64,000 nucleotides of DNA from Escherichia coli (lineage in GTDB: Bacteria > Pseudomonadota > Gammaproteobacteria > Enterobacterales > Enterobacteriaceae), in the NCBI RefSeq assembly GCF_030384885.1, contig NZ_CP128613.1. The stretch is one strand, 5' to 3'. Made by a program: the position numbers. Shown piece after piece: positions 56,301-59,300 of this stretch (within the stretch, counting starts at the first letter, position 1; the number at the start of each line of letters is the position of its first letter).

Positions 56301-59300
56301 AACTTCAAAGTGCCGTTTAATTTCTACAACGTCCATTACAACAGTACGCACGTCGTCGGTACATCGGGTGGTTCAACGGACGATATGAAAGAGGCGATTG
56401 CCCTGAGCGCCACGGGGCAGTTGCAACCGTCGTTTATGGTGACGCATATCGGTGGCCTGGATGCAGTGCCAGAAACCGTTCTCAATTTACCGGATATCCC
56501 CGGTGGTAAAAAACTCATTTACAACGGCGTTACCATGCCGCTCACTGCCATTGCCGATTTTGCCGAAAAAGGCAAAACAGATCCGCTGTTTAAAGAGCTT
56601 GCGCGGCTGGTTGAGGAAACGCACGGCATCTGGAATGAACAGGCCGAGAAATATCTGCTGGCGCAATTTGGCGTTGATATCGGGGAGGCCGCGCAATGAT
56701 GTCCCTGGCGTGGCCATTATTTCGCGTTACGGAGCAGGCAGCGTTGGCTGCCTGGCCGCAAACCGGATGTGGCAACAAAAATAAAATTGATGGCCTGGCG
56801 GTCACCGCGATGCGCCAGGCATTAAACGATGTCGCTTTTCGTGGGCGAGTGGTTATCGGCGAGGGAGAAATTGACCATGCGCCGATGCTGTGGATTGGCG
56901 AGGAGGTGGGCAAAGGCGATGGGCCAGAAGTCGATATCGCGGTTGATCCCATTGAAGGTACGCGGATGGTGGCGATGGGGCAGAGCAATGCGCTGGCGGT
57001 CATGGCTTTCTCCCCTCGAGATAGCCTGTTACACGCGCCCGATATGTATATGAAAAAACTGGTTGTTAATCGGCTGGCGGCGGGCGCGATTGATCTGTCT
57101 TTGCCTCTGGCGGACAACTTGCGCAACGTGGCGAAAGCGTTAGGCAAACCGCTGGACAAGCTGCGTATGGTTACGCTGGATAAACCGCGCCTGAGTGCCG
57201 CAATTGAGGAAGCGACGCAACTGGGCGTGAAGGTTTTTGCCCTGCCGGATGGCGATGTTGCCGCCAGCGTGCTGACCTGCTGGCAGGATAATCCTTACGA
57301 TGTGATGTACACCATCGGCGGTGCGCCGGAGGGCGTGATTTCTGCCTGTGCCGTTAAAGCATTAGGCGGGGATATGCAGGCCGAGCTGATTGACTTTTGT
57401 CAGGCTAAAGGGGATTACACGGAAAATCGGCAGATTGCAGAGCAGGAACGCCAGCGTTGCAAGGCAATGGGCGTTGACGTTAACCGTGTGTACTCGCTCG
57501 ATGAACTGGTGAGGGGGAACGATATCCTCTTTAGCGCTACGGGCGTGACGGGCGGTGAGTTGGTGAATGGTATCCAACAGACGGCGAATGGGGTGCGGAC
57601 GCAGACATTACTGATCGGCGGCGCGGACCAAACGTGTAATATAATAGACTCCCTGCATTGATGGTGATCTATCGGAAGACCAATGGCGACGCTGACAGAA
57701 GATGATGTGCTTGAGCAACTGGACGCACAGGACAATTTATTGTCATTTATGAAAACTGCACATGCCATTTTGCTCCAGGGGATACGCCAGTTTCTGCCGT
57801 CGCTGTTTGTCGATAACGATGAAGAGATCGTGGAATATGCAGTGAAGCCGTTACTCGCTCAAAGCGGCCCGCTTGACGATATTGATGTTGCGCTACGTTT
57901 GATTTTTGCACTGGGGAAAATGGACAAATGGCTGTACGCCGATATCACGCACTTTTCCCAGTTCTGGCATTACCTGAATGAACAGGATGAAACGCCCGGA
58001 TTTGCCGATGACATTACCTGGGATTTTATCAGCAACGTCAATAGCATAACCCGCAATGCGACGCTCTATGACGCGTTAAAAGCGATGAAGTTCGCTGATT
58101 TCGCCGTCTGGTCAGAGGTGCGTTTTAGTGGGATGGTCAAAACGGCGCTGACGCTGGCAGTAACGACCACCTTAAAGGAATTAACGCCGTGAAAATTGAC
58201 TTAACGGTGAATGGTCTGAAGGTACAAGCACAGTACCATGTTGATGAGATAGAAAATGTACATAAACCGTTGCTGCGTATGTTGGCGGCCTTACAGACGG
58301 TAAATCCGCAGCGGCGTACCGTGGTTTTTCTTTGCGCTCCGCCGGGGACGGGTAAATCTACCCTAACCACTTTCTGGGAATATCTCACGCAACAAGACCC
58401 GGAACTACCCACTATTCAGACGCTGCCGATGGATGGTTTTCACCATTACAATAACTGGCTGGATGCGCATCAATTGCGCCCCTTTAAAGGCGCACCAGAG
58501 ACATTCGATGTGGCAAAACTGGTGGAAAATCTGCGCCAGGTAATGGAAGGGGATTGTACGTGGCCGCAGTACGATCGACAAAAGCATGAGCCTGTTGAAG
58601 ATGCGTTGCACGTTACCGCACCACTCGTCATCGTCGAAGGAAACTGGTTGTTGCTGGACGACGAGAAGTGGTGCCAGCTTGCGCAATTTTGTGATTTCTC
58701 GATCTTTATCAACGCGCCAGCTACTGCGTTGCAGGAACGACTGGTGGGGCGCAAGCTGGCGGGAGGGTTATCGCTGGCAGACGCAGAAGCCTTTTATGAC
58801 CGTACCGATGGGCCGAATGTTCGCCGGGTGCTGGAAGAGAGTCTGCCTGCAAATTTGACCTTAATGATGACCGCTACGGGTGAATATCGTCTGGTGGATT
58901 AACGTTCCTGATTACACCATCTTCCAGTCGCACCACACGAGAGAAATGACGCCGGGTAAATGCGGCGTCATGACTGATTGCTACGACGCTCGTGCCTCGC
59001 TGGCGGCACTTTTCCAGCCAGCTTTCAAACACGCTCATCCAATTTTCGTCAAAATCCCGACTCGGCTCGTCCAGCAGCAATAGCGGCGGAGAGAGTGCTT
59101 CCAGGCAGGCGACGGCGACCATCCGTCGCTGCGCACTATGCAGATCTAACGGATGCGCGCTGGCAGTGTCTGCTAACTGACAGCATTGCAGGGCAGCATT
59201 GGTACGTTGAGTGATTTCATCCGCCAGGCATTTTTGCAGTTTCAAACCAAATGCGATCTCGTCAGCGACGGTGCTGTGAAAAAGCTGGTTTTCCGCTTCC

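What the first reader, a model, noticed from the sequence alone, without database searches (positions are those of the whole stretch)
58874..58902. Convergent 3' overlap between yggC and the last ECF-type ATPase gene
The two reading frames overlap tail to tail by about 29 bp with no terminator between them. Either the ATPase start/stop assignment needs revision or the inserted operon's end lies inside yggC's 3' coding sequence, implying antisense transcription into yggC.
Basis: seen in the sequence. Interest (0 to 1): 0.2.

Follow-up and report, generated by a model that had tools for sequence, protein, structure and literature searches.

The report
Real tail-to-tail overlap of two genes
The ends of a kinase gene (yggC) and a transporter ATPase gene really do overlap by 29 bases on opposite strands, but this is an old, ordinary by-product of two genes packed end to end, not an annotation error or a recent insertion.

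Summary
Observation confirmed. yggC (58189-58902, +) and the second ATPase of a five-gene ECF-transporter operon (58874-59551, -) overlap tail to tail by 29 nt. No terminator-like hairpin lies between or near them, and RefSeq annotates the same coordinates.

A stop codon cannot be reassigned, so the overlap stands. Only the ATPase start needs care: ATG 59551, not GTG 59584.

The overlap is not peculiar to this strain. In all 20 intact loci from at least 8 enterobacterial genera where yggC adjoins this ATPase, the two overlap by 11-92 nt, always in the same phase. The conserved cores lie only 25-49 nt apart, and shuffling that spacer still gives an overlap 88-98% of the time, so no selection is needed.

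The ATPase side is a disordered, non-conserved 8-residue tail. It is absent from homologues that face tktA and have their own stop plus a bidirectional terminator. The yggC side is a conserved, structured beta-strand.

The operon is ancestral in Escherichia, not inserted. K-12-type strains (about 39% of complete genomes) lost it through a replacement whose left breakpoint lies inside yggC, near 58650.

Mutual antisense read-through is likely but untested. Low interest.

The parts
58189..58902 (+). yggC, a P-loop nucleoside/nucleotide-kinase family protein of 237 aa and the last gene of the cmtBA-yggP-yggF(glpX)-yggD(fumE)-yggC cluster.
   Evidence: ORF. PGAP annotation. NCBIfam equivalog NF006742 matches residues 1-237 of a 237-position profile, E=4e-154. 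AlphaFold mean pLDDT is 94, with a C-terminal beta-hairpin at 223-227 and 233-236.
58874..58902 (.). The 29-nt tail-to-tail overlap. On the + strand it encodes the yggC tail (part of A229, then TGEYRLVD and the stop). On the - strand it encodes the ATPase tail (part of V217, then NPPDDIHP and the stop). Codon positions pair 1:1, 2:3 and 3:2.
   Evidence: Sequence, ORFs. Overlap lengths in all intact yggC-adjacent loci are congruent to 2 mod 3. The ATPase motif 'D-I-H/R-P' is the antisense image of YggC's conserved 'G-E-Y-R'.
58874..59551 (-). ECF-type ABC ATPase 2 (225 aa), the last gene of the operon. The conserved core ends near residue 217. Residues 218-225 form a non-conserved, low-confidence tail.
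   Evidence: PF00005 E=6e-27. ECF_ATPase NCBIfam models score below their cut-offs. In the alignment of 20 homologues, conservation ends at R208-L209 and lengths run from 214 to 229 aa. In the AlphaFold model the last strand is 213-217 and pLDDT is below 50 for 222-225.
59545..60222 (-). ECF-type ABC ATPase 1 (225 aa). It overlaps ATPase 2 by 7 nt (ATGCTGA).
60210..60917 (-). ECF T (transmembrane) component, 235 aa.
   Evidence: PGAP name. PF02361 CbiQ match is weak (E=6e-5, 23.3 bits against a 25-bit cut-off).
60918..61496 (-). ECF S (substrate-capture) component, 192 aa, similar to the CD3073 family.
   Evidence: PF12822 E=1.5e-8. NF045596 E=9e-40 but 136 bits against a 180-bit cut-off.
61519..61950 (-). 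PPC/PCC (DUF296) domain protein, 143 aa, the first gene of the operon.
   Evidence: PF03479 E=3e-27. PGAP annotation.
58648..62079 (.). The segment that distinguishes ECF-bearing from K-12-type E. coli. It comprises the yggC 3' third, the whole ECF operon and about 130 nt upstream of the PPC gene. In K-12 it is replaced by about 300 nt, made up of a 53-75%-identical yggC 3' third plus about 45 nt.
   Evidence: Identity between K-12 and three ECF-bearing strains falls from at least 0.9 to 0.53-0.75 from about 58643-58653 onward. Homology resumes at TGGAATAA, window 62080. The junction sequence is present in 3320 of 5426 genomes.

Best explanation
This is a genuine and evolutionarily old tail-to-tail overlap of two ordinary, functional genes. 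It arises because their conserved coding cores are packed almost end to end.

Shown:
- The last invariant codons of YggC (Y233) and of the ATPase (L209) are only 37 nt apart here, and 25, 37 or 49 nt apart in other genera.
- Neither reading frame meets a stop codon before entering the other gene.
- YggC's overlapping part is its conserved, structured last beta-strand.
- The ATPase's overlapping part is an unstructured 8-residue read-through extension. Its sequence is simply the antisense image of YggC's tail, and it is absent where the ATPase faces tktA instead.
- The junction arose once: the phase is the same in all genera, and the spacers differ only by in-frame 12-nt steps.
- The junction predates the genus Escherichia.
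- K-12-type strains lack the operon because a divergent segment replaced it, with a breakpoint inside yggC.

Inferred:
- With no intrinsic terminator, each transcript runs some way into the other gene as antisense RNA. It is probably stopped by Rho, since the untranslated antisense stretches are moderately C-rich and G-poor.
- Any mutual interference is a side effect rather than a selected function.
For: - Coordinates and annotation agree.
- All 20 intact yggC-adjacent loci overlap: Escherichia 29 nt, Salmonella 32, most Citrobacter 44, C. koseri 68, Silvania 26, Superficieibacter 41, UBA5654 92, Phytobacter 11. All lengths are congruent to 2 mod 3.
- The core-to-core spacer is 25, 37 or 49 nt. 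Shuffling it still gives an overlap in 88-98% of trials, and observed lengths fall within the shuffled range.
- ATPase homologues that face tktA are 216-219 aa, with their own stop and a 44-161-nt gap. The three short gaps fold as an A-tract, GC hairpin, T-tract bidirectional terminator; the 161-nt Klebsiella gap has a similar hairpin at its ATPase end.
- The ATPase alignment loses conservation after R208-L209, and its model has pLDDT below 50 at 222-225.
- YggC G231 and Y233 are conserved as far as Firmicutes, and its model is confident to the end.
- The operon is syntenic in E. albertii, E. whittamii, Salmonella and Citrobacter. The ATPase is 225 aa in E. ruysiae and E. marmotae. GC content is ordinary.
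- K-12's yggC 3' third falls outside the Escherichia clade in the 3' tree but inside it in the 5' tree.
- No terminator, no structure beyond shuffles, and no Rfam hit. The C/G ratio reaches 2.0-2.15 at 81-178 nt past the yggC stop and 1.5-1.7 at 41-158 nt past the ATPase stop, against a background median of 1.0 and 95th percentile of 1.71.
Against: - No transcript data were available, so read-through, Rho dependence and lack of function are all inferred.
- C-richness of antisense RNA is a general property of coding DNA and only weakly indicates a rut site.
- The 20 loci are not phylogenetically independent, so 'always overlapping' largely reflects one ancestral junction.
- The deeper polarity among the three haplotypes (ECF only, both clusters, ygg only) was not resolved.
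- No donor of the K-12-type yggC 3' end was found. The closest species representatives are only about 65% identical.
Confidence: 0.8

Rival explanations
1. The overlap is a selected regulatory device. Convergent transcription of the cmt-ygg cluster and the ECF operon would yield complementary 3' ends that down-regulate each other, by RNase III cleavage or transcriptional interference. This would resemble mscL-arfA or an 'excludon'.
For: The overlap is retained in every yggC-adjacent locus across at least 8 genera, and no terminator ever evolved between the genes. A tail-to-tail CDS/3'UTR overlap in E. coli, mscL-arfA, does mediate antisense control (PMC10070815).
Against: Retention is what neutral shuffling predicts given the 25-49-nt core spacing. 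Overlap length and sequence vary freely, from 11 to 92 nt. There is no conserved or stable RNA structure. Each cluster also exists happily without the other, in the tktA-facing and K-12-type haplotypes. The ECF operon is repeatedly lost or pseudogenised with yggC kept.
Confidence: 0.12
2. Annotation or sequence artefact: the ATPase really ends earlier, or one ORF is spurious, so there is no true overlap.
For: Homologues in Klebsiella, Leclercia and part of Citrobacter end 6-11 residues earlier. In some E. coli (O103:H2 strain 129) the ATPase gene is frameshifted.
Against: There is no in-frame stop before 58876-58874. The sequence is identical in an independent complete genome, and the junction is at least 95% identical in all but one of 3320 genomes. 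Protein clusters holding thousands of members are all 225 aa. Both proteins have strong family matches and confident models.
Confidence: 0.03
3. One reading: the ECF operon is a horizontally inserted island in this strain, whose end was planted inside yggC.
For: The operon is absent from K-12 and about 39% of complete E. coli genomes. The boundary of the polymorphism lies inside yggC. The E. coli W genome paper lists it as strain-specific (PMC3032704).
Against: The same operon sits at the same place, with the same overlap phase, in E. albertii, E. whittamii, Salmonella, Citrobacter and others. The window-type yggC 3' end follows the species tree while the K-12 type does not. GC and GC3 are ordinary. 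No integrase or tRNA lies at the borders.
Confidence: 0.05

Closest known systems
Short convergent (tail-to-tail) CDS overlaps in prokaryotic genomes, 'phase 1' class in the convention of bioRxiv 10.1101/2025.11.07.687268
   Same: Two bona fide genes on opposite strands share their last codons. The length is congruent to 2 mod 3, so no third codon position faces a third position. That preprint says both convergent and unidirectional overlaps show a phase bias predominantly favouring phase 1. The origin is by loss or displacement of a stop codon, so that one ORF runs into its neighbour.
   Different: Nothing essential. The extra features here are that the overlap is traceable to one ancient junction, conserved in phase across at least 8 genera, and that one partner's tail is demonstrably a passenger.
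mscL-arfA convergent pair of E. coli and Enterobacterales (PMC10070815)
   Same: Tail-to-tail arrangement in Enterobacteriaceae, with overlap of 3' CDS or 3' UTR and variable overlap or gap among genera.
   Different: For mscL-arfA, antisense regulation and an RNase III-cleaved stem-loop are shown experimentally. Here no structure is detectable, no expression data exist, and neutral packing suffices as an explanation.
Bidirectional intrinsic terminators shared by convergent genes (from my own knowledge: Ju, Li and Liu 2019, Nat Microbiol)
   Same: This is what the same ATPase gene has when it faces tktA in Citrobacter and Leclercia, and similarly in Klebsiella: an A-tract, GC hairpin and T-tract in a 44-161-nt gap.
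   Different: In the window, and in every yggC-adjacent locus, this element is missing. The two CDSs interpenetrate instead.
Group-I (dedicated) ECF transporters, with S, T and two ATPase genes in one operon
   Same: The gene set and order are S, T, A, A', with a preceding PPC-domain gene. The genes are tightly coupled by overlaps of 7 and 13 nt.
   Different: Both ATPases are short (225 aa) and match ECF-ATPase profiles only up to about position 231 of 279, so they lack the usual C-terminal extension. All matches are below the equivalog cut-offs. ATPase 2 has a degenerate signature motif, LHSAQ. The substrate is unknown.

Membership tests
Convergent overlapping CDS pair | Both ORFs are real protein-coding genes. 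| tested here: met
   YggC matches equivalog NF006742 at 511 bits against a 402-bit cut-off. The ATPase matches PF00005 at 95.5 bits against 25. Homologues run into the thousands. Structure models are confident.
Convergent overlapping CDS pair | Each stop codon lies inside the other gene's coding sequence. | tested here: met
   TAA at 58900-58902 lies within ATPase codons 217-218. TAG (minus strand, 58876-58874) lies within yggC codons 229-230.
Convergent overlapping CDS pair | The overlap is reproduced in related genomes, so it is not a one-off error. | tested here: met
   20 of 20 intact yggC-adjacent loci overlap, all in the same phase. The junction is present in 3320 E. coli genomes.
Antisense-regulatory convergent pair (mscL-arfA / excludon type) | Overlapping transcripts are demonstrated. 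| not testable with these tools
   No RNA data were available. This is only inferred from the absence of terminators.
Antisense-regulatory convergent pair (mscL-arfA / excludon type) | Reciprocal effect on expression, or RNase III processing. | not testable with these tools
   This needs experiments.
Antisense-regulatory convergent pair (mscL-arfA / excludon type) | Conservation of the overlap beyond the neutral expectation, or a conserved RNA structure. | tested here: not met
   Shuffled spacers overlap in 88-98% of trials. Folding z-scores run from -1.2 to +1.1. Overlap length varies from 11 to 92 nt.
Bidirectional intrinsic terminator between convergent genes | A GC-rich hairpin flanked by an A-tract and a U-tract between the two stops. 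| tested here: not met
   None in the window. Present in tktA-facing homologous loci L086, L087 and L088, and similarly in L005.
Horizontally inserted genomic island | Absent from sister species at this site, with atypical composition or mobility genes at the borders. | tested here: not met
   Present and syntenic in E. albertii, E. whittamii, Salmonella and Citrobacter. GC is 0.53-0.56 against a window mean of 0.52. No integrase or tRNA lies at the borders.
ECF transporter, dedicated (group I) type | An S component, a T component and two ABC ATPases encoded together. | tested here: met
   PF12822, PF02361 (weak, 23.3 bits against a 25-bit cut-off) and two PF00005 matches. PGAP names agree.
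ECF transporter, dedicated (group I) type | The ATPases reach the curated EcfA equivalog scores and carry the C-terminal domain. | tested here: not met
   TIGR04521 scores 149 bits against a 330-bit cut-off. TIGR04520 scores 142 against 315. Matches stop at profile positions 231 of 279 and 223 of 269.

The most novel reading that the evidence does not exclude
The phase-conserved, terminator-less interlocking of yggC and the ECF ATPase could be a maintained antisense switch. It would make expression of the cmt-ygg sugar-alcohol cluster and of the ECF importer mutually exclusive. It could also shape how the operon can be lost, which might explain why K-12-type strains lost it by allelic replacement reaching into yggC rather than by a clean deletion.
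Probability: 0.1. Interest if true: 0.4.

Novelty: already known. Interest (0 to 1): 0.15.

Why it matters
It matters little beyond good annotation practice. The overlap should be kept as annotated, and only the ATPase start set to 59551.

It is a clean worked example of how a convergent overlap arises and persists without selection: two conserved cores 25-49 nt apart, with one tail riding on the other gene's antisense.

Three practical points follow:
- Knock-outs or deletions of the ECF ATPase that remove 58874-58902 will also truncate YggC's last structural strand, and vice versa.
- yggC alleles in E. coli are mosaics. K-12-type 3' thirds are only about 60% identical to the ECF-linked type, so yggC is a poor phylogenetic marker but a perfect proxy for presence of the operon.
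- The epd-tktA interval is a three-state hotspot (ECF only, both clusters, ygg only) across Enterobacteriaceae.

Tried and rejected
- Terminator, promoter and folding scans around the junction found nothing. A 9-bp GC-rich inverted repeat at 58946-58971 (UGACGCCG...CGGCGUCA) lies 45 nt past the yggC stop. It has no U-tract, sits in conserved ATPase coding sequence, and the enclosing fold scores only z=-1.2, so I rejected it as a terminator.
- The Rfam E-value search of 57500-62500 gave no hits.
- I searched for the donor of the K-12-type yggC 3' third. The protein search with the 84-aa C-terminus returned only 15 candidates, short fragments mostly near-identical to the query and uninformative. 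Among 80 species-representative loci nothing exceeds about 65% nt identity, except a divergent Escherichia genome (L011, 89%). The donor remains unidentified.
- Literature searches for yggC together with ECF, or for the ygg cluster, found nothing. The only relevant mention is E. coli W's 'cbiQ-O2 in the region epd-yggC'.
- I considered a functional link between the YggC kinase and the ECF importer, as a salvage pair. I rejected it as a necessity, because each occurs at this locus without the other.
- I considered that the K-12 state is a simple deletion. I rejected this because the yggC 3' third is 53-75% identical rather than about 95%. True simple internal deletions do exist in two cryptic Escherichia lineages (L006, L010).
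- I did not resolve which of the three haplotypes is oldest.

Full report
**What is there.** The window is E. coli. It is 100% identical over 4.5 kb to strain 2013C-4282.
- yggC occupies 58189-58902 on the + strand.
- The last gene of a minus-strand five-gene operon occupies 58874-59551. That operon encodes a PPC-domain protein (61519-61950), an ECF S component (60918-61496), an ECF T component (60210-60917), ATPase 1 (59545-60222) and ATPase 2.
- RefSeq/PGAP annotates the same ends in this strain, in an ST131 strain and in an O103:H2 strain.
- The maximal ATPase ORF starts at GTG 59584. All 20 aligned homologues begin MLTLNQ, which corresponds to ATG 59551. The start of a 'longest-ORF' track therefore needs revision, but this does not touch the 3' end.
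- A stop codon is not a matter of assignment. There is no in-frame stop before TAG (58876-58874).

**No terminator, no RNA element.**
- The consensus scan finds no terminator-like site on the relevant strands within about 1.3 kb.
- Folding four 131-141-nt stretches around the junction gives z-scores of 0.8, 1.1, -1.2 and 1.1.
- Rfam gives nothing at E up to 1.
- Downstream of each stop the would-be antisense RNA is moderately C-rich and G-poor. The C/G ratio is up to 2.15 past the yggC stop and up to 1.67 past the ATPase stop, against a background 95th percentile of 1.71.
- This fits Rho-dependent termination of untranslated antisense RNA. The link to Rho is my own knowledge (Peters et al. 2012, Genes Dev) and an inference, not a demonstration.
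- In the annotated 50 kb around the locus, the other five convergent gene pairs have gaps of 45-173 nt.

**Which side of the overlap is constrained.**
- An alignment of 20 ATPase homologues (Escherichia, Salmonella, Citrobacter, Klebsiella, Leclercia, Atlantibacter) is nearly invariant up to R208-L209. After that it disintegrates in sequence and in length, from 214 to 229 aa.
- The AlphaFold model (mean pLDDT 89) places the last beta-strand at 213-217 and gives pLDDT below 50 for 222-225. The overlap covers residues 218-225 and part of V217.
- By contrast, YggC is conserved to its end. G231 and Y233 are kept even in Firmicutes homologues of about 40% identity.
- YggC's model (mean pLDDT 94) has a final beta-hairpin at 223-227 and 233-236.
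- The only semi-conserved motif in the ATPase tails, D-I-H/R-P, is the antisense reading of YggC's G-E-Y-R.
- The ATPase tail is therefore a passenger on yggC's constrained 3' end.

**Relatives elsewhere.** I collected the locus from species-representative genomes using a YggC alignment, and from contigs encoding specific ATPase homologues. Three haplotypes of the epd-tktA interval exist.
- Type A: epd | ECF operon | tktA. Seen in Klebsiella pasteurii, part of Citrobacter and Leclercia.
  - The ATPase is 216-219 aa with its own stop.
  - A 44-161-nt gap follows. In Citrobacter and Leclercia it holds a textbook bidirectional terminator (A-tract, GC hairpin, T-tract).
  - The longer Klebsiella gap has a similar hairpin at its ATPase end.
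- Type B: epd | ECF operon | yggC-yggD-yggF-yggP-cmtA...tktA. This is the window's arrangement, also found in E. albertii, E. whittamii, Salmonella (three lineages), many Citrobacter, Silvania, Superficieibacter, UBA5654 and Phytobacter.
- Type C: epd | yggC..., with no ECF operon. Seen in K-12, C. braakii, C. amalonaticus, Raoultella, Lelliottia and others.

**The overlap across type B loci.**
- In every one of the 20 intact type B loci the two genes overlap. Lengths are 29 nt (Escherichia), 32 (Salmonella), 44 (most Citrobacter), 26, 41, 68, 92 and 11.
- All lengths are congruent to 2 mod 3, so the phase is identical.
- The distance between the invariant YggC Y233 codon and the invariant ATPase L209 codon is 25, 37 or 49 nt, differing only by in-frame 12-nt steps.
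- This points to a single ancestral junction.

**Is the conserved overlap more than chance?** No.
- I kept the flanks and shuffled only the 25-49-nt spacer.
- An overlap resulted in 88-98% of shuffles.
- Median shuffled lengths were 47-92 nt, so the observed overlaps are unexceptional.
- Overlap is simply what happens when two conserved cores abut this closely. No selection for overlap needs to be invoked.

- The operon is syntenic in E. albertii, E. whittamii, Salmonella and Citrobacter.
- E. ruysiae and E. marmotae have the 225-aa ATPase.
- GC and GC3 are ordinary.
- No mobility genes lie at the borders.
- 3317-3320 of 5426 complete E. coli genomes carry the operon and the junction.

**The K-12 state is not a simple deletion.**
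- K-12's yggC is also 237 aa.
- Its identity to three ECF-bearing E. coli strains is at least 0.9 up to about 58640, then drops abruptly to 0.53-0.75 through the stop.
- Homology resumes at TGGAATAA, window 62080, about 240 nt upstream of epd.
- In a tree of the yggC 5' two-thirds, K-12 sits inside Escherichia. In a tree of the 3' third, K-12 and one divergent Escherichia genome leave the genus and join, at long distance, a clade of ECF-less Lelliottia, Raoultella and Enterobacter.
- About 3.4 kb was therefore replaced by about 0.3 kb of xenologous sequence, with the left breakpoint inside yggC. The donor is unidentified.
It lies about 255 nt upstream of the stop, not at the overlap.
- Genuine simple internal deletions of about 2.8 kb occur in two cryptic Escherichia lineages. 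They leave an ATPase 3' stump still overlapping yggC.
- In an O103:H2 strain the ATPase is frameshifted.
- The operon is thus dispensable and repeatedly decays.

**How it most likely works.**
- Shown: the anatomy, the asymmetry of constraint, the single origin, the neutral sufficiency and the direction of change in Escherichia.
- Inferred: transcripts of each unit extend into the other gene and are ended by Rho or by collision. Some mutual dampening is possible when both are expressed.
- The experimentally supported analogue is mscL-arfA (PMC10070815). Here there is no conserved structure, and each cluster thrives without the other.
- I give the regulatory reading about 0.1.

**Verdict.** This is an ordinary, already-annotated member of the well-known class of short convergent CDS overlaps. 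In the convention of bioRxiv 10.1101/2025.11.07.687268 it is phase 1, the phase that preprint says such overlaps predominantly favour. The evolutionary history is tidy but unsurprising. Interest is low (0.15).

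Noticed in passing
window 58648-58902 versus K-12 (L002 2149-2403): yggC is a mosaic. 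The 3' third of the K-12-type allele is only 53-75% identical to the ECF-linked allele, and it is in near-perfect linkage with absence of the operon (3320 against about 2100 genomes). The donor lineage is unknown.
   Followed up: yes
window 59129-59143 (- strand; ATPase 2 residues 137-141): The ABC signature motif is degenerate (LHSAQ instead of LSGGQ) and invariant in all 20 homologues, whereas ATPase 1 keeps LSGGE. This suggests one catalytically degenerate ATP site in the heterodimer.
   Followed up: no
window 59552-59584: The longest ORF for ATPase 2 starts at GTG 59584. All homologues and PGAP start at ATG 59551, which overlaps the ATPase 1 stop by 7 nt (ATGCTGA).
   Followed up: yes
L089 2375-3045 (E. 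coli O103:H2 strain 129): ATPase 2 is annotated as a frameshifted pseudogene in this EHEC-type strain, although the overlap with yggC is unchanged.
   Followed up: no
L006 5712-5912 and L010 5689-5961 (Escherichia sp. MOD1-EC7003 and E1V33): These are independent internal deletions of about 2.8 kb in the ECF operon. Each leaves a 3' stump of ATPase 2 next to an intact yggC. In L010 about 24 nt align to both deletion flanks, which suggests microhomology.
   Followed up: partly
L017 5712-5784 (C. braakii); L002 2404-2455 (K-12): ECF-less (type C) loci carry a long palindrome directly after the yggC stop (ATTATTCCAG...CTGGAATAAT). Its right arm is the TGGAATAA that marks the start of the shared epd-upstream region. 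It is decayed in K-12. It may be the yggC terminator or a scar of the rearrangement.
   Followed up: partly
L086 3652-3713, L087 3652-3695, L088 3661-3713, L005 4658-4818: Where the ECF operon faces tktA directly, the Citrobacter and Leclercia gaps fold as a classic bidirectional terminator (AAAAAACGGGCCGC...GCGACCCGTTTTT). The longer Klebsiella gap has a similar hairpin at its ATPase end.
   Followed up: yes
window 52264-53492 (- strand): A prohibitin/SPFH-family gene (302 aa) and an overlapping 107-aa ORF lie between tktA and cmtB, convergent with tktA across a 45-nt gap. I did not check whether this is strain-variable.
   Followed up: no
window 58193-58250: The first ~20 codons of yggC are unusually variable among E. 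coli strains, at 77-88% identity in every pairwise comparison. This is a second mosaic spot.
   Followed up: no
window ~14000-20730: According to the RefSeq annotation, group-2 capsule genes (kpsD-like, kpsE, kpsF), IS110 and IS3 fragments and a truncated DUF4942 gene abut tRNA-Phe. This looks like a pheV-type island border.
   Followed up: no
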